Shown in pieces: positions 1,553 to 39,185 of a DNA stretch of 64,000 nucleotides (position 1 is the first letter of the stretch; every line of letters begins with the position of its first letter). The notes under the pieces were generated by a model. It was given only the letters and a program-made list of their open reading frames with translations, did not search any database and was not told where the DNA came from. The position numbers were made by a program, and so were the translations under genes. This DNA comes from a bacterium (GTDB lineage Bacteria; Patescibacteriota; Minisyncoccia; UBA6257; HR35): NCBI GenBank assembly GCA_041640295.1, contig JBEQAR010000003.1, forward strand, positions 6,489 to 70,488. The letters run 5' to 3'.

Positions 1553-2692
1553 TTACCGATTATCACCTCGGGAACCAAAATTTCTTAAGACAATCTCTTG
1601 ATCATTGTCATCGACGGTGCCATTAAAATTTAAATCAACTCGAGGATTATTTCGCCAATCACTTGTTTGACCAAAAGCAAAGAGAATATTTAATAAGTCA
1701 CTATCATCAATAATATTATCATTATTAGTATCACCATAAGTTAAATCAATATTTACTTGATTATTATTTTGAAGATATGTCCTTTTACTTAAAAAGTGTG
1801 GCATAGAGATAAAGGCTTGGGGTTGATTACAATCATAGGGTAAATCAGTAAGATTAATTACACTTCCTAAACTATAATTAGAATTGGGATAATTAAAACT
1901 TCTACCATCAGTACATCTAATATCAATATTTAAATTTTGAGGTGGGGTATTAGTATTATTTGATAAATCATTTGAATTAATTCTTAAAGAATAATTAGCT
2001 GGACCAACTGAACCATAAGCACCAAAATTCCTTAAAACTATTTGTTGATCTATATTATCTACTAAACCATCCAAATTAACATCTGGTCTTTTAGCGCTGG
2101 AAGTTGAATAAGGCCAGTTGTTTCCAAAATTAAATAATACTTCTAATAAATCGGAATCATCAATCATATTATTTTTATCAACATCACCTGCTTTAAAGAA
2201 AACATCTTGAGGGTTACGACTACTAGTGCTTGTTAAATATACATAAACACTAAGATAATGAGGAATATTCAATAAAACTGCTGGTCTATCGCAATCGTCA
2301 GATAATGTAATTTGTGTGGTATCATATGAACGAACACCTCTTGCTCTTATACCTTCTCTTCTTTGATCATCGCAATATAAATCTCCATCCATTCTTTGTT
2401 CAGGTACTGAAGTTGCTCTTTCTTGTTCAATTCCCTCCAAAATTACTCTAAGATAATAAATTGGTCCACCAGCTACATTAAAATCTCCTGTATTGTTTCC
2501 TTGTTGATTGTTTGAATTATTATTGTTGTTTTGATTATTTGTTTGGTTAGATTGATTGTTTTGTTGATAAATTTGATTATATTGTTGAACTTGATTGTTA
2601 TTTATGGGTGGTTTTTGATTTAAGGCTTGATTTTGACCTAAAAGTAAATTAGAAAGAAGTAATAAAAACATAATTAAAGTATTTAAATCCAT
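1553..2692 (-). CDS. Secreted protein with a Q/N-rich low-complexity region and four dockerin-type (EF-hand-like) Ca-binding repeats
   Basis: N-terminal signal-like hydrophobic segment. Long Q/N-rich tract. Repeats DVDKNNMIDDSDLLEVLFNFG, DVNLDGLVDNIDQQIVLRNFG, GDTNNDNIIDDSDLLNILFAFG and DLNFNGTVDDNDQEIVLRNFG match the dockerin type I consensus. Confidence 0.55.
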   Translation of the reverse strand: MDLNTLIMFLLLLSNLLLGQNQALNQKPPINNNQVQQYNQIYQQNNQSNQTNNQNNNNNSNNQQGNNTGDFNVAGGPIYYLRVILEGIEQERATSVPEQRMDGDLYCDDQRREGIRARGVRSYDTTQITLSDDCDRPAVLLNIPHYLSVYVYLTSTSSRNPQDVFFKAGDVDKNNMIDDSDLLEVLFNFGNNWPYSTSSAKRPDVNLDGLVDNIDQQIVLRNFGAYGSVGPANYSLRINSNDLSNNTNTPPQNLNIDIRCTDGRSFNYPNSNYSLGSVINLTDLPYDCNQPQAFISMPHFLSKRTYLQNNNQVNIDLTYGDTNNDNIIDDSDLLNILFAFGQTSDWRNNPRVDLNFNGTVDDNDQEIVLRNFGSRGDNR

Positions 2693-2805: not shown

Positions 2806-4074
2806 TTAAAATTTTTCAAACAAAAAGATTAGAGGGTCAAAAAACCCGAATTTATCGGGGTTATGTGGGGTATAGCCATAACATTCTGTGGGTTTTTTAT
2901 CTATATTACAAATAGCTTTCTTTGGACTTCCTAAAACTGGTTTTATTTTAATTTCCAAGTGTAAATGAATATCCAATGGAGTATTTTTATTACAACCATC
3001 TTCACCAATTCGCCAATAATTACAACCATAACCAGTTGCACCAACTTTGCCAAGAATCTGGCCAGCCTTAACAAAATCTCCTTCTTTAATATCCGGATTA
3101 ATTTCAGCCATATGACCATAAAGAGCGTATAACGTCTGCAGTTTTGGCGAGCGAGGCTCGGGTAGGCTGTGGGCGTATGTTTGAGCCGAAGCATTAGCGG
3201 AGACCAAACTGGCGCGCTGAGCGAGCCAAATTGTAGACGTATTTGAGTTTATCTCCATAATCACTGTATTCCCCAAACCATGATCTCCTTCGCCATTTTT
3301 TACAACTTTGACAATCCTACCATCAGCAACAGCGTAAACATTTAAATCTTTAGCCTGAAACACTGGAGCTAAATCAATACCAGCATGTTGAATATAATCA
3401 ATTTGTCTATCTTCTGAATAAGTATAATTTGTTCTCAAGGGATTATTAAATCTCTGACGAATAAAAAATTCTTTAATATTAACTGGCTGATGAAATCCTT
3501 CTTTAATTTTAAAATTTTTAAAGGTTATATAGCTTATTATTAAATCTCCTGTTTTGACCAATTTAAAAAATTCTTTAGCATAGTCTGTTTCTAAACGAAT
3601 ACAACCACCAGTAAAATTTGAATCTACTTTTTGACCATTAAAATAATAAGGAATTTCGTGGACAAAAAAATCTTCATACATCTGAACAGCATAATTCATA
3701 TAAACAGGAAATAACGATGATATATGCTTTTCCTTTTTTACGCCGATCCGGAAATAACCCGTTGGTGTTTGATACCATTTTCCATAAGGAGCCTGATAAG
3801 CAATTGGAATTATTTTTTTAAGCTCTCCATCTTCAAAAAAATAAATTTTGTTATCTGTTAAATCAACTTCAAAAATTCTTTTTTCTAGAATTTTGGGTTT
3901 CAAATAAGAAAAACCCGCTTTTGGAATATAAAAATCTTTTTTATTATTAGCGCCAAAATCATAAACTATATGCTTCTCTAGCAAATTAATATTAAATTCT
4001 TTTTCTAAGATTAATAAAGATGAAAATATTAAAAGTATTGTTAAAATTATTAAGATTAAAAAATTTTTTATCAT
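2806..4074 (-). CDS. Cell-wall enzyme fusing an L,D-transpeptidase (YkuD-like) domain with an M23 (LytM) metallopeptidase domain
   Basis: GGCIRL catalytic motif of L,D-transpeptidases. M23 motifs HAGIDLA (HxxxD) and DIHLHLE (HxH), plus YGHM. N-terminal TM/signal anchor. Confidence 0.7.
   Translation of the reverse strand: MIKNFLILIILTILLIFSSLLILEKEFNINLLEKHIVYDFGANNKKDFYIPKAGFSYLKPKILEKRIFEVDLTDNKIYFFEDGELKKIIPIAYQAPYGKWYQTPTGYFRIGVKKEKHISSLFPVYMNYAVQMYEDFFVHEIPYYFNGQKVDSNFTGGCIRLETDYAKEFFKLVKTGDLIISYITFKNFKIKEGFHQPVNIKEFFIRQRFNNPLRTNYTYSEDRQIDYIQHAGIDLAPVFQAKDLNVYAVADGRIVKVVKNGEGDHGLGNTVIMEINSNTSTIWLAQRASLVSANASAQTYAHSLPEPRSPKLQTLYALYGHMAEINPDIKEGDFVKAGQILGKVGATGYGCNYWRIGEDGCNKNTPLDIHLHLEIKIKPVLGSPKKAICNIDKKPTECYGYTPHNPDKFGFFDPLIFLFEKF
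3132..3240. repeat. GC-rich insertion of about 109 bp, in frame inside the M23 domain, bounded by imperfect terminal inverted repeats (acgtctgcag / tgtagacgt)
   Basis: Local GC is well above the flanks. It encodes about 34 extra residues between two conserved M23 blocks (a 5-aa loop in S. aureus LytM). The two ends are reverse complements at about 17 of 20 positions. Confidence 0.4.
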
Positions 4075-5960: not shown

Positions 5961-6000
5961 TTGAAGATAAGTATTGCACTCTATAAAAATATTGATTTAG

Positions 6001-6090
6001 ATTCCGGGGTAGGCGTGCCTGCCTTTGCCTATCGGCAGACAAGGGCAGGCAGGGTTTATTCGCCAATAGGCGAAAACGCGCGGCTGTATA
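6001..6090. other. GC-rich (about 60%) structured intergenic element with nested hairpins. Possible small ncRNA or recombination-site remnant.
   Basis: Stems cctgcc/ggcagg, tgcc-tatc-ggca and ttcgcc-aata-ggcgaa. It starts with the 12-mer attccggggtag, which is identical to the 5' end of tRNA-Asn at 6332-6343. Confidence 0.3.
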
Positions 6091-6103
6091 ATATAAAATT
6101 AAA

Positions 6104-6343
6104 ATGAATTATTACGTGTATGTTTTGAGAAGTTTGAAAACAGGGAAGCATTATATAGGTATAAGCAAAAATCCAGAGAAGAGACTAAAAGAGCATAACA
6201 AAGGGGATAGTAAATTTACGAAAGGTCATAGACCGTGGGTTTTAGTTTATAAAGAGTTTGTTGGCAATAGATTAAAAGCTAGAGCAAAAGAAAAAGAATT
6301 GAAAAGGTCATACGCAAAACGAAAAAATTTTATTCCGGGGTAG
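6104..6343 (+). CDS. GIY-YIG nuclease superfamily protein (UPF0213/YhbQ-like)
   Basis: MNYYVYVLRSLKTGKHYIGISKNPEKRLKEHNKG is a canonical GIY-YIG N-terminus. 79 aa. Its stop codon overlaps the first bases of tRNA-Asn. Confidence 0.7.
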   Translation: MNYYVYVLRSLKTGKHYIGISKNPEKRLKEHNKGDSKFTKGHRPWVLVYKEFVGNRLKARAKEKELKRSYAKRKNFIPG

Positions 6344-6405
6344 TTCAGTGGTAGAACGCCTGGCTGTTAACCAGGATGTCGCAGGTTCGAATCCTGCCCC
6401 CGGAG
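6334..6405 (+). tRNA. tRNA-Asn (anticodon GTT)
   Basis: Cloverleaf read by eye: acceptor tccgggg/ccccgga, anticodon stem cctgg/ccagg with loop ctGTTaa, T-arm gcagg-ttcgaat-cctgc. No encoded CCA. Confidence 0.85.
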
Positions 6406-6520
6406 CACAGAAGAATAATTTTCACTCTCTTTCTCAAAATCCCTATTAATTTCTACATTTTTCTCACTTTTTGCTGGTTCGAATGAGGTTTATTTTTGAA
6501 ATTTTGTTAAAATAAGAGTA

Positions 6521-18621: not shown

Positions 18622-20304
18622 CTATTTAGCTGCACTTTTTATAAATTCAATAAACAATGGATGGGGATAAAGAAATCTTGATTTAAATTCTGGATGAAAC
18701 TGAGTACCGAGAAAGAAAGGATGGATTTTGGAAGGAAGCTCACCGATTTCCACCAATAAACCTTTTTGTGATATTCCTGAAAAAACAAATCCGTATTTTT
18801 GTAAAATTTTGTGATATTTAGGATTAATTTCATAACGATGACGATGTCTTTCTAAAACCGCGAACTGTCGCAAACGGTACGCGGACTGTTGCAAACCTTG
18901 TCTGCGGTAGTCTGCGTCTTTATAAGCTTTATAAGCAATTGTTCCTTTTTTAATTTGGCATTCCCAATTACCAAGTCTCATTGTCCCTCCATACAGTTTT
19001 TCTTTTAATAATTTCTTTTGTTCTTCTAAAATATCAACAACCGGATATTTCGTTTTAGGATTAACTTCAGTAGTATGAGCTCCTTTTAAGCCACAAACAT
19101 TGCGAGCAAATTCAACTACCATTAGTTGCAACCCATAACACAAGCCAAAGCAAGGAATTTTATTTTCTCGGCAATACTGAATTGCTAAAATTTTTCCCTC
19201 AACTCCTCGAGAACCAAAACCACCAGGAATAATAATCCCGTGATAATTTTTTAATTCTTCTAATTTATTTTTATTATTTTCATATTCTTCAGAATTTAAC
19301 CAAACGATTTTGGGTCGATAGCCCAAATACCAACTTGCATGTTTTATGGCTTCAATAACGGAAATATAAGCATCTGACAAAATAAAATCTCCAGTTTGAA
19401 AATATTTTCCAACAATACCTATTTTAATTTCTTTGTTTAACCTTTCAATATTTATTATCTTTTTCTGCCAAAGATTAAAACTTGTAATTTGAAATTTCTT
19501 ATTTTTTAAATTTAACTTTAATAATATTTTTCTTCCTAAATTTTCTTTTTCAAAGTTTAGGGGTATTTTATAGATGTTTGTTTCATCTGGAGCAGAGATA
19601 ATAAATTGATGATTCATATTGCAATTAAAAGCTATTTTTTCCTTTCTGGGTTGATCTAATGGTTTAATAGCTCGAGCCAAAACAAAATCTGGCTGAAGAC
19701 CAACTGAGTTAAGGGTTCGGATAGCATATTGGGTTGGTTTAGTTTTTAATTCTCCACCTTCGCCTTGATAAGGTAAATAACTAACTAAAATTAAAATAAC
19801 ATCTTTGGGATTTTGAAGTTTAAGAATTCTTGCTGCCTCTAAAAATAAAACATTTTGATATTCACCTACTGTTCCACCAATTTCAACAATAACAATCTCT
19901 GCTTTAGTTAATTTTTGAGCTTGATTAATTTTTTCAATAACTTCTAAGGGAACATGAGGAACAACTTCAACACACTTACCATCAAAATACAAACTTCTTT
20001 CTTTCTGAATTAATGAGAGATAAACGCTTCCTGTAGTCATATAATTTTCTTTGGTAAATTCCTTATTCAAAAATCTTTCATAATGCCCCATATCTTGATC
20101 ACATTCAGTTCCATCCTTTAGAACAAAAACTTCACCATGCTCAATTGGATTCATTGTTCCCGCATCGACATTAACATAAGGATCAATTTTGAGACAAGTA
20201 GTTTTATAGCCGTGCCATTCTAAAATTCGAGCAATTGAGGCGGTAGCAATTCCCTTACCCACTCCAGACATTACTCCCCCACAAATAAAAATATATTTTG
20301 CCAT
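18622..20304 (-). CDS. pyrG: CTP synthase
   Basis: MAKYIFICGGVMSGVGKGIATASI N-terminus, GATase domain with GLCYGLQ and ERHRHRYE. About 19 aa are inserted before ERHRHRYE and are encoded by a GC-rich patch. Confidence 0.9.
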   Translation of the reverse strand: MAKYIFICGGVMSGVGKGIATASIARILEWHGYKTTCLKIDPYVNVDAGTMNPIEHGEVFVLKDGTECDQDMGHYERFLNKEFTKENYMTTGSVYLSLIQKERSLYFDGKCVEVVPHVPLEVIEKINQAQKLTKAEIVIVEIGGTVGEYQNVLFLEAARILKLQNPKDVILILVSYLPYQGEGGELKTKPTQYAIRTLNSVGLQPDFVLARAIKPLDQPRKEKIAFNCNMNHQFIISAPDETNIYKIPLNFEKENLGRKILLKLNLKNKKFQITSFNLWQKKIINIERLNKEIKIGIVGKYFQTGDFILSDAYISVIEAIKHASWYLGYRPKIVWLNSEEYENNKNKLEELKNYHGIIIPGGFGSRGVEGKILAIQYCRENKIPCFGLCYGLQLMVVEFARNVCGLKGAHTTEVNPKTKYPVVDILEEQKKLLKEKLYGGTMRLGNWECQIKKGTIAYKAYKDADYRRQGLQQSAYRLRQFAVLERHRHRYEINPKYHKILQKYGFVFSGISQKGLLVEIGELPSKIHPFFLGTQFHPEFKSRFLYPHPLFIEFIKSAAK

Positions 20305-38894: not shown

Positions 38895-39158
38895 ATGGAA
38901 AAAAACAAAAATGTACTAACAATAGTTGTCGTTTTAGTAGTTTTAATTGTTGTTGGTGTTTTAGCTTGGTGGTATACTAAACAAAGAGGATCAGTAACAG
39001 CACCCACAGGTCCTGCTCCAACAGAAAATGTTGAACCAACTCCAGCTGTTCCAGAAGTACCACCAGTACCTACGCAACCTGAAGTTCCAGCAACACCACC
39101 TGCTGGAGAATCAACAGAAACACCAACAGGTAACGTACCAAATCCTACAGGCGAATAA
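38895..39158 (+). CDS. Small N-terminally membrane-anchored Pro/Thr-rich protein
   Basis: TM helix LTIVVVLVVLIVVGVLAWWY followed by a P/T/E-rich tail. Followed directly by a strong terminator. Confidence 0.4.
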   Translation: MEKNKNVLTIVVVLVVLIVVGVLAWWYTKQRGSVTAPTGPAPTENVEPTPAVPEVPPVPTQPEVPATPPAGESTETPTGNVPNPTGE

Positions 39159-39185
39159 TTTTTATTATTATTTTATTTAAATTGA

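What the first reader, a model, noticed from the sequence alone, without database searches (positions are those of the whole stretch)
3132..3240. GC-rich ~109-bp in-frame insertion with terminal inverted repeats inside the M23 peptidase domain
In a roughly 28% GC genome, this segment is over 55% GC. It is bounded by acgtctgcag ... tgtagacgt, which are near-perfect reverse complements. The ends are also partly self-complementary further in (ttggcgagcgag / ctgagcgagccaa). The segment adds about 34 residues exactly between two conserved M23 blocks, where S. aureus LytM has only a 5-aa loop. The frame is kept open. This mirrors Rickettsia palindromic elements (RPEs), which insert in frame into protein genes.
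Basis: seen in the sequence. Interest (0 to 1): 0.55.

Follow-up and report, generated by a model that had tools for sequence, protein, structure and literature searches.

The report
In-frame GC-rich hairpin insert in peptidase
A 99-base, GC-rich, hairpin-forming stretch of probably selfish DNA sits in frame inside a cell-wall enzyme gene of a tiny AT-rich (Parcubacteria-like) bacterium, at a protein loop that related bacteria have repeatedly filled with other palindromic repeat elements, much as in Rickettsia.

Summary
Window 3132-3240 is 57.8% GC in a 27.7% GC window and is bounded by a 13-nt inverted repeat. It lies in frame in a YkuD+M23 peptidoglycan hydrolase gene (2806-4074, minus strand). 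Comparison with the closest insert-free ortholog puts the true insertion at 99 nt, or 33 codons (3130-3228). The outer arm of the 'terminal repeat' is host codons T-S-T-I. The inner 'gagcgag' motif is a direct repeat, not an inverted one.

The insert is lineage-specific, identical in four independent assemblies, and loops out of a beta-hairpin turn that is short in lysostaphin.

This loop is an insertion hot spot. Of the 120 closest homologs, 59 carry unrelated inserts there. Most of the inserts examined at DNA level are palindromic arrays of short CG-containing motifs. In related genomes these arrays recur in frame in MurD, PyrG and other genes. The window itself holds a second such insert, in PyrG (18859-18918).

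The RPE-like reading therefore holds for the gene family. It is unproven for this element: no second copy turned up in about 76 kb of its own genome or about 0.9 Mb of related loci. Several of the wider searches could not have detected a copy anyway.

The parts
2806..4074 (-). Host gene: 422-aa secreted YkuD (L,D-transpeptidase) plus M23 peptidase. The catalytic motifs are intact (H230xxxD234, H370xH372).
   Evidence: ORF list. Pfam PF03734 at 9.5e-12 and PF01551 at 5.5e-14, the latter in two stretches. These columns are invariant in a 30-sequence alignment. 179 homologs found, named Parcubacteria/Patescibacteria in source records.
3130..3228 (-). The insertion proper: 99 nt, 33 codons (W283-L315, WLAQRASLVSANASAQTYAHSLPEPRSPKLQTL), 59.6% GC, no stop codon in frame.
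   Evidence: Junction comparison with insert-free ortholog L028/P0004. GC content. Removing it in silico restores an unbroken alignment to lysostaphin 4qp5. AF2 predicts confident strands at 269-275 and 316-325, with the insert as a low-confidence helix (277-295) plus a disordered stretch (297-309).
3132..3144 (.). Inverted-repeat arm inside the insert. On the sense strand this is the insert's 3' end (AAACTGCAGACGT).
   Evidence: the repeat finder I1: 13 nt, 85% complementary. It matches the host flank at 12 of 15 positions, reached by 6 of 200,000 shuffles.
3228..3240 (.). Partner arm. Positions 3229-3240 are host codons T-S-T-I (ACG TCT ACA ATT), homologous to ACA TCA ACA ATT in the insert-free ortholog.
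   Evidence: An S/T-rich turn (TSTI, TTTI, SSSTI) recurs in insert-free orthologs.
3145..3227 (.). GC-rich interior. It forms two internal hairpins on the plus strand and contains a direct repeat, CTCGCTC (sense strand). It has no short-motif periodicity. Its source is unknown.
   Evidence: Fold results. Self-comparison. No similarity anywhere searched.
18859..18918 (-). Second in-frame CG-motif insert in the window, inside PyrG (CTP synthase, ORF 18622-20304). The peptide is DADYRRQGLQQSAYRLRQFA, a net gain of 17 residues over an 82%-identical ortholog. It consists of two direct repeats of about 21 nt, plus GCAGAC motifs.
   Evidence: CpG-density and fold scans. Sequence. PyrG alignment, in which L010 and L001 carry other inserts at the same site. 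GACGCAGACTACCGCAGACAAGG resembles the M23-loop insert of L033 and many sites in L040-L044.

Best explanation
The segment is a 99-bp, 60%-GC, hairpin-forming piece of non-host DNA. It was inserted in frame at the tip of a beta-hairpin in the M23 domain of a YkuD-M23 cell-wall hydrolase, in an AT-rich Parcubacteria-type genome.

It most likely behaves like a Rickettsia palindromic element: selfish DNA whose propagation or retention depends on its hairpin (cruciform or single-stranded DNA) form. It persists only because this copy happens to meet three conditions:
- its length is a multiple of three;
- it is free of stop codons;
- it sits in a surface turn that tolerates a 33-residue loop-out.

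Shown:
- the insertion, its lineage specificity, its composition and its hairpin;
- its position at a turn with the catalytic residues intact;
- that this turn is a recurrent insertion site;
- that related genomes, and PyrG in this window, carry multi-copy, in-frame palindromic motif arrays.

Inferred:
- that this orphan, compositionally different element arrived by the same kind of process;
- that it is translated;
- that it has no host function.
For: - Lineage-specific 33-codon insertion at a turn that is short in 61 of 120 homologs and in lysostaphin.
- 59.6% GC against 27.7% for the window, with codon usage foreign to the gene.
- Terminal stem significant at about 3e-5, and fold z-scores of -2.2 and -2.9.
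- DNA identical in four independent assemblies, so not an artefact.
- Catalytic motifs invariant, and AF2 shows a loop-out.
- The same loop carries at least seven unrelated insert families. Insert-bearing and insert-free orthologs are interleaved in a loop-masked clustering.
- Several ortholog inserts form strong palindromes: L036 -85 kcal/mol (z -7), L001 -59 (z -5), L034 -45 (z -6.4).
- Those motif arrays recur in frame elsewhere, with similar peptides. Examples are the MurD-like ORF of L058 (two sites), L040, L041, L042, L043, L046 and L060, plus a 451-aa ORF and PyrG.
- Their 8-mers are 50-100 times over expectation and occur almost only in arrays.
- The window's own PyrG carries one such array.
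Against: - No second copy of this element in the window, in about 12 kb of extra flank, or in about 0.9 Mb of related loci.
- It lacks the 21-24-nt motif periodicity of the ortholog arrays and is far more GC-rich (0.60 against 0.26-0.45).
- One arm of its 'terminal inverted repeat' is host sequence. There is no target-site duplication and no transposase partner.
- No CG-containing 8-mer is enriched in this genome's 64 kb.
- Translation and mobility are untested.
Confidence: 0.5

Rival explanations
1. A one-off product of local DNA repair or replication error, not a mobile element. A break or stalled fork in this loop was repaired by fold-back or template-switch synthesis plus captured filler DNA. 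That created an inverted copy of the adjacent host codons and left an orphan insert that happened to be in frame.
For: - The insert's 3' end is an inverted copy of the host T-S-T-I codons (12 of 15; 6 of 200,000 shuffles).
- The element is single-copy in everything searched.
- In relatives, palindrome arms extend into or overwrite host strand codons (VEH becomes TQI) and can flank native sequence (L040 MurD).
- The two arms of the loop palindrome changed together in L050.
Against: - The roughly 75-nt, 60%-GC interior cannot be templated from the 28%-GC neighbourhood, and no donor was found.
- Recurrent inserts at the same loop that belong to dispersed families argue for an insertion process rather than isolated accidents.
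Confidence: 0.2
2. A selected, thermostable RNA structure: either a hairpin within the peptidase mRNA (affecting translation, pausing or stability) or an antisense RNA read from the plus strand.
For: - Its GC content equals that of the tRNAs, which are the only other comparably GC-rich structured segments in the window.
- The plus strand folds to -47.9 kcal/mol (z -2.9) using G-U pairs, better than the sense strand.
- Many relatives come from hot-spring MAGs, judging by record titles. That KatS3mg and HR35 denote hot springs is my own knowledge.
Against: - No Rfam family matches, even at E<=10.
- There is no convincing promoter or terminator for a plus-strand transcript.
- The closest ortholog does without it.
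- The antisense strand also folds better for most ortholog inserts, a G+T composition effect.
- Only one sequence variant exists, so covariation cannot be assessed.
Confidence: 0.1
3. An adaptive protein-level loop extension, for example altering substrate access or partner binding of the M23 domain. On this reading the DNA palindromy is incidental.
For: - The loop is variable at protein level. It also hosts AT-rich, non-palindromic inserts such as a conserved 17-residue Cys-x8-Cys loop and 31-residue Lys/Glu-rich loops.
- AF2 predicts a helix for residues 277-295.
Against: - The GC content and codon usage are alien to the genome.
- The terminal inverted repeat is significant.
- The peptide matches no Pfam family.
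- Among 1.84 billion representative proteins it has only weak, repeat-summed matches.
- AF2 confidence across the insert is low.
Confidence: 0.1
4. An assembly chimera or contamination.
For: The composition jumps abruptly within a MAG-type sequence.
Against: - The whole 1269-nt gene, insert included, is identical in four independent assemblies from Logan, ENA and JGI samples, and the protein is carried by 8 contigs.
- The reading frame is preserved.
Confidence: 0.01

Closest known systems
Rickettsia palindromic elements (RPE-1 to RPE-10). As summarised in PMC10969869: about 150 bp, ten families, 44 insertions in R. conorii, nearly half of them in-frame fusions.
   Same: - Palindromic DNA of about 100 bp in an AT-rich, reduced genome.
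- Inserted in frame into a housekeeping enzyme gene at a position compatible with the fold.
- In the relatives studied here, the same element family occurs in frame, giving similar peptides, in several unrelated genes.
   Different: - No sequence relationship was tested or seen, and the phylum is different.
- This element is single-copy in all sequence available.
- The relatives' elements are modular arrays of 8-11-nt motifs with a 21-24-nt period, not fixed-length units.
- One arm here is host sequence.
Intragenic REPs, especially CGTC-tagged REPs (Di Nocera et al. 2013, PMC3733652). RPE-4 and RPE-6 belong to this group.
   Same: - Small palindromic repeats that can sit inside genes and add 20-30 residues, often as head-to-head dimers.
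- Both ends of this element carry CGTC (ACGTCTGCAG and ACGTCTACAA).
- CGTC REPs have no known dedicated transposase.
   Different: - CGTC REPs are defined by the tag followed directly by an 8-9-bp stem, a 4-5-nt loop and a CCA tail. No such stem-loop follows either CGTC here.
- This element is 99 nt with a complex interior.
Bacterial MITEs that create in-frame fusions (ERIC, BOX and others; PMC10969869).
   Same: Short, non-autonomous, hairpin-forming DNA with inverted ends that can be read through as part of a host ORF.
   Different: There is no target-site duplication, no multi-copy family and no cognate IS. The outer inverted repeat is partly host-derived.
GC clusters and 'byp' elements of AT-rich yeast mitochondrial genomes (recalled from my own knowledge, not checked here).
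   Same: GC-rich palindromic mini-elements invading protein genes of a very AT-rich genome.
   Different: Byps interrupt the frame and are bypassed by the ribosome. This insert is stop-free and in frame, as are all ortholog inserts, so bypass is not needed.
[quoted passage not shown]
   Same: Coding tandem repeats whose DNA shows dyad symmetry. They are dispersed within and between genomes.
   Different: PARCELs are 25-residue tandem domains in ORFs of unknown function. They are not inserts in conserved enzymes, and there is no sequence resemblance.

Membership tests
Rickettsia palindromic elements / RPE-like in-frame selfish palindromes | Palindromic DNA of about 100-150 bp able to form a long hairpin | tested here: met
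   99 nt. A 13-nt stem at 85% complementarity, extending to about 16 bp with G-U pairs. Folds to -33.3 and -47.9 kcal/mol (z -2.2 and -2.9). The terminal match was reached by 6 of 200,000 shuffles. The palindromy is terminal only, not along the whole length.
Rickettsia palindromic elements / RPE-like in-frame selfish palindromes | Inserted in frame in a protein-coding gene, without stop codons, at a site compatible with the fold | tested here: met
   33 codons with no stop, between strands 269-275 and 316-325. Catalytic residues are intact, and the lysostaphin alignment is restored when the insert is removed. Translation itself was not tested.
Rickettsia palindromic elements / RPE-like in-frame selfish palindromes | Member of a dispersed multi-copy family within the genome, encoding a conserved peptide | tested here: not met
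   No other copy in 64 kb plus about 12 kb of the same genome or in about 0.9 Mb of related loci. Only about 10% of the genome was available, so this is not conclusive. The wider searches were void.
Rickettsia palindromic elements / RPE-like in-frame selfish palindromes | Sequence homology to RPE-1 through RPE-10 | not tested
   No RPE sequences were available in the tools. Homology is implausible given the different phylum.
Parcubacterial in-frame palindromic motif arrays (defined here) | Arrays of an 8-11-nt CG-containing motif with an in-frame period of 21-24 nt, in direct and/or inverted halves | tested here: not met
   The M23 insert has no such periodicity. CGTCT[AG]CA occurs only at its two ends. 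The window's PyrG insert does meet this feature.
Parcubacterial in-frame palindromic motif arrays (defined here) | Occupies a shared permissive loop that carries such arrays in orthologs | tested here: met
   46 of 120 homologs have loops of at least 25 residues at this turn, and all of those examined at DNA level except L002, L070 and L085 are CG-motif arrays.
CGTC-tagged REP (Di Nocera 2013) | CGTC tag followed by an 8-9-bp stem, a 4-5-nt loop and a CCA tail (about 30 bp) | tested here: not met
   CGTC is present at both ends, but no adjacent short stem-loop exists.
MITE | Element-encoded terminal inverted repeats flanked by a target-site duplication, in multiple copies | tested here: not met
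   The outer arm is host T-S-T-I codons. No direct repeat flanks the insert, and it is single-copy.
Diversity-generating retroelement variable region | A nearby template repeat about 90% identical, plus a reverse transcriptase | tested here: not met
   No second copy of any part of the segment in the window. The window was not screened for a reverse transcriptase.
Known structured RNA (Rfam), tRNA or tmRNA | Match to a covariance model or a cloverleaf | tested here: not met
   Only tRNAs elsewhere in the window reach the gathering score. Across 3050-3320, at E<=10, there is only a 9.5-bit chance hit outside the insert. ARAGORN finds nothing here.
Peptidase M23 (host protein) | HxxxD and HxH zinc ligands and the M23 fold | tested here: met
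   PF01551 at 5.5e-14. H230, D234, H370 and H372 are invariant. Lysostaphin 4qp5 matches at E 7e-6 once the insert is removed.

The most novel reading that the evidence does not exclude
Hot-spring-type Parcubacteria (CPR) may harbour an undescribed system of intragenic selfish DNA: palindromic, in-frame minisatellite-like arrays of short CG-containing motifs. These arrays colonise the same permissive loops of essential enzymes (M23 hydrolase, MurD, PyrG).

The motif 'dialect' is shared among genes within a genome but differs between genomes at orthologous sites. That pattern implies ongoing turnover driven by a genome-specific trans-acting hairpin or motif-recognising enzyme.

On this reading, the window's 60%-GC element would be a distinct, thermostable member of that world, or its cargo, captured at the hot spot.
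Probability: 0.3. Interest if true: 0.75.

Novelty: new variant of a known kind. Interest (0 to 1): 0.6.

Why it matters
CPR/Patescibacteria genomes are among the smallest and most streamlined known, so parasitic DNA inside their essential cell-wall and nucleotide-synthesis genes is unexpected.

If the pattern holds genome-wide, it would matter in several ways:
- It would be a second, independent case, after Rickettsia, of palindromic elements remodelling proteins in reduced genomes.
- It would explain many 'low-complexity insertions' and length differences in CPR proteins.
- It would warn annotators and structure predictors about non-homologous loop segments.
- It would point to an unidentified hairpin-processing activity in these organisms.

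Full-text searches of the held literature found no report of this in CPR.

Tried and rejected
- **Known RNA:** Rfam at gathering score and at E<=10, plus ARAGORN, found nothing.
- **Other copies in the window:** a pattern search with 3 mismatches, blastn-short and nhmmer --max returned only the element itself.
- **Other copies in related DNA:** blastn-short against all fetched loci returned only the four identical loci. An extra 4.5 kb beyond the window's right end held nothing.
- **Metagenome scan with a 21-mer:** 0 hits. The collection does not even hold the element's own contig, so this is uninformative.
- **IMG/VR scans:** only 17-21-nt chance matches in phage contigs of 55-68% GC. A motif-array pattern gave isolated single matches.
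- **Peptide against 1.84 billion representative proteins:** three weak hits. Two are T/A/G-rich repeat proteins matching at 40-43% identity over 25 residues, summed over repeats. The third was reported with no matched stretch and was not assessed beyond its composition. Pfam found nothing.
- **The search for homologous proteins with the peptide and with a six-frame composite:** it failed to recover even P0001, so both negatives are void.
- **Antisense small-RNA gene:** no convincing promoter or terminator.
- **Uptake-signal-like dispersed motif:** rejected for the relatives' motifs. Singletons occur at chance level and nearly all copies sit in arrays.
- **CGTC-REP membership:** the architecture is not met.
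- **DGR, intein, intron or ribosomal bypass:** there is no template repeat and no splice-type termini, and the frame is open.
- **Assembly artefact:** rejected.
- **The roughly 1-kb GC-rich regions next to the peptidase gene in relatives:** not rRNA or any other Rfam family.
Full report
**1. The observation**

The window is 27.7% GC. The flagged 109 nt (3132-3240) are 57.8% GC, the highest value of any 109-nt stretch in the 64 kb. The other GC peaks are seven tRNAs, a Pro/Thr-rich coding tail (38967-39159) and one intergenic hairpin near 6000.

The repeat finder reports arms 3132-3144 and 3228-3240, 13 nt at 85% complementarity. The region folds better than dinucleotide shuffles. As mRNA sense strand it reaches -33.3 kcal/mol (z -2.2). 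As plus strand it reaches -47.9 kcal/mol (z -2.9), the difference coming from G-U pairs.

It lies in the minus-strand ORF 2806-4074 (422 aa). Pfam finds a YkuD domain (residues 66-179) and an M23 domain split into two stretches.

**2. Exact anatomy**

The nearest insert-free ortholog is P0004 (locus L028), 80% identical outside the loop. It reads GGC ACA TCA ACA ATT | TAT GCC CTT TAT GGT (G T S T I | Y A L Y G). The window reads AAT ACG TCT ACA ATT | TGG CTC ... CAG ACG TTA | TAC GCT CTT TAT GGT.

The most parsimonious insertion is therefore 99 nt, or 33 codons: plus-strand 3130-3228, residues W283-L315, 59.6% GC.

It follows that the arm at 3229-3240 is host sequence (codons T-S-T-I). An S/T-rich turn recurs in other insert-free orthologs. 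The insert's far end is an inverted copy of that flank, matching 12 of 15 positions; only 6 of 200,000 composition-preserving shuffles do as well.

GAGCGAG is a direct repeat. There is no flanking direct repeat, so no target-site duplication.

**3. Real, and tolerated by the protein**

The whole gene, insert included, is nucleotide-identical in four independent assemblies (Logan SRR34066068 and ERR14841040, ENA ERZ1669371, JGI 3300038392). The protein is carried by eight contigs.

The zinc ligands H230xxxD234 and H370xH372, and the YkuD His/Cys, are invariant columns.

AlphaFold2 (30-sequence alignment, mean pLDDT 74) places confident strands at 269-275 and 316-325. It models the insert as a weak helix (277-295) followed by a disordered stretch (297-309).

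With the 33 residues deleted in silico, the domain aligns without a break to lysostaphin. GNTVIMEINSNTSTIYALYGHM pairs with GNQIGLIEN--DGVHRQWYMHL, so solved M23 enzymes have a short turn here. With the insert present, only the C-terminal half aligns.

**4. The loop is a hot spot**

Among the 120 best homologs (all YkuD+M23; the named ones are Parcubacteria, Patescibacteria or Minisyncoccia MAGs):
- 61 have an 8-13-residue segment at this turn;
- 13 have 14-24 residues;
- 46 have 25-87 residues.

The long inserts fall into at least seven unrelated sequence families. In a clustering that masks the loop, insert-bearing and insert-free proteins are interleaved. The window's nearest neighbours are P0004 (no insert), P0003 (66-residue loop segment, 62-residue insert) and P0002 and P0005 (other inserts). 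No ortholog shares the window's insert, so the refutation test 'conserved as protein sequence' fails.

**5. What the ortholog inserts are**

I fetched their DNA. Most are built from short CG-containing motifs repeated in direct and inverted orientation:
- ACGCAGATAA / TTATCTGCGT (L034; -45 kcal/mol, z -6.4);
- TACCCGAAT and GACCGAAT, facing ATTCGGTC and ATTCGGGTA (L036 and L058; -85 to -91 kcal/mol, z -7);
- CGCGAACTAAT (L001; -59 kcal/mol, z -5);
- CACGAATTAA (L039);
- ATC(C/A)GCGTT, direct only (L037).

Motif spacing alternates 11 and 13 nt, giving 24 nt or 8 codons, so the arrays stay in frame. All are stop-free.

Some inserts at this loop are ordinary AT-rich protein sequence. One example is a conserved 17-residue Cys-x8-Cys loop.

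**6. The arrays are dispersed, in-frame elements**

In L058 the same ACCCGAAT/GACCGAAT palindrome occurs twice more within 10 kb. Both copies are inside a 595-aa MurD-like ORF and in frame. They give peptides like those in the peptidase: ELPESSDRIESTRITR...FGQDSGNLFGPHSG against ELPESSDQIDYTRIER...FGQNSGN.

Comparable arrays sit in MurD-like ORFs of L040-L044, L046 and L060, in a 451-aa ORF, and at two sites in PyrG.

The motif 8-mers are 50-100 times over expectation in those loci. They occur almost only in arrays, with singletons at chance level, which argues against an uptake-signal-like dispersed motif.

Different genes within one genome share a motif 'dialect'. Orthologous loops in different genomes carry different dialects.

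Two further details:
- In L050, both arms of the loop palindrome changed together, giving two compensatory pairs.
- In L040 MurD, the two arms flank about 70 nt of native coding sequence.

This is the Rickettsia-palindromic-element phenomenon in a new phylum and with a modular architecture. For the RPE comparison see PMC10969869; intragenic REPs, including RPE-4 and RPE-6, are described in PMC3733652.

**7. The window's own genome**

A CpG-density scan of the window finds only three non-tRNA hot spots: the M23 insert, the intergenic element near 6000, and 18810-18934.

The last of these is an in-frame insert in PyrG (ORF 18622-20304). The peptide DADYRRQGLQQSAYRLRQFA is absent from the 82%-identical L028 PyrG, and L010 and L001 carry other inserts at the same site. 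Its DNA, GACGCAGACTACCGCAGACAAGG, resembles the M23-loop insert of L033 and many sites in L040-L044. So this genome does take part in the phenomenon, though sparsely: no CG 8-mer is enriched in its 64 kb.

**8. Where the flagged element fits**

It occupies the hot-spot loop and is hairpin-forming, in frame and lineage-specific. But it differs from the arrays: it has no motif periodicity and is 0.60 GC against 0.26-0.45.

It is also an orphan. No similarity was found in:
- the window;
- about 12 kb of extra flank from the same genome;
- about 0.9 Mb of related loci;
- IMG/VR.

The JGI-subset metagenome scan returned nothing, not even the element's own contig. The word-indexed protein search failed its positive control. 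Those negatives carry no weight.

The exhaustive representative search gave only three weak hits, two of them repeat-summed matches to T/A/G-rich proteins. Pfam gave nothing.

In a 28%-GC genome, a 60%-GC coding segment must be either recent and foreign, or held by selection on structure.

**9. Verdict**

- **Best explanation (confidence 0.5):** an RPE-like selfish hairpin element, or captured GC-rich DNA delivered by the same process, translated as a 33-residue loop-out at a permissive turn.
- **Rivals:** a one-off fold-back or filler repair product (0.2; favoured by the host-derived arm and single-copy status, disfavoured by the untemplatable GC-rich interior); a selected thermostable RNA structure (0.1); an adaptive protein loop (0.1); an artefact (0.01).

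The analogy is right for the locus and the gene family, but membership of a dispersed family is unproven for this element.

The wider pattern, in-frame palindromic motif arrays in essential genes of CPR bacteria, did not appear in full-text searches of the held literature. It is the more interesting result.

Noticed in passing
window 18859-18918 (PyrG ORF 18622-20304, minus strand): A second in-frame CG-motif insert, peptide DADYRRQGLQQSAYRLRQFA, made of two direct repeats of about 21 nt plus GCAGAC motifs. It is absent from an 82%-identical ortholog. Its sequence is related to M23-loop and MurD inserts of other Parcubacteria genomes.
   Followed up: yes
window 5995-6095 (+), upstream of a small GIY-YIG ORF (about 6104-6343) and tRNA-Asn (6334-6406): A GC-rich intergenic element with the hairpin GCCTGCC...GGCAGGCAGG. 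At the homologous spot, L001 reads like a tRNA 5' half (GGGGTAGTTCAGTGGTA) followed by the same hairpin. The same hairpin sits in frame inside the L038 M23 insert and next to tRNAs in L073. The element shares the 10-mer GCAGACAAGG with the PyrG insert. No Rfam family matches.
   Followed up: partly
L058 1967-2167 and 3080-3220; L040 4338-4521, 4760-4920, 5373-5491, 7420-7560; L041 3092-3256; L060 532-654 and 1713-1810: MurD-like and other ORFs of related genomes carry up to three in-frame palindromic or direct motif arrays each. In L040 (4760-4920) the two inverted arms flank about 70 nt of native coding sequence.
   Followed up: partly
L046 11371-12330, L047 4591-5820, L048 11251-12300, L060 11491-12480, L061 1711-2820, L050 331-1380: A region of about 1 kb at 0.55-0.63 GC, in genomes of 0.24-0.32 GC. 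In most of these loci it lies just downstream of the peptidase gene. No Rfam family matched in L060, the only one of these loci scanned. It encodes a conserved ORF (GLVVEKPEPGQVLVYGSSDPYPNPAE.LLTQLVA...). It may be a foreign gene or one constrained in composition.
   Followed up: partly
L029 14516-15676 (about 5-7 kb beyond the window's left end): A 386-aa ORF of about 0.5 GC with no Pfam family, embedded in the 0.28-GC genome.
   Followed up: no
window 1553-2692 (minus strand): The neighbouring gene encodes a 379-aa protein that is N/Q-rich at its N-terminus. It has four dockerin-like repeats of the form D.N.DG.VD..D...VL.NFG.
   Followed up: no
window 2845-2859 (minus strand): A terminator-like hairpin, CCCGATAAATTCGGG followed by T6, lies inside the 3' end of the peptidase ORF. 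It encodes PDKFGFF and contains the CCCGAAT/ATTCGGG motif used by arrays in other genomes.
   Followed up: no
L050 5076-5207 compared with L034 2284-2415: Both arms of the M23-loop palindrome changed together (GCGGAT to GCGAAT, with ATCAGCG to ATTCGCG). The L050 arms are now perfectly complementary over 15 nt. This suggests arm-to-arm homogenisation or selection on the hairpin.
   Followed up: partly
L080 10498-10501 and L084 6552-7532: The peptidase ortholog is frameshifted once in L080 and several times in L084. These are either pseudogenes or low-quality assemblies.
   Followed up: no
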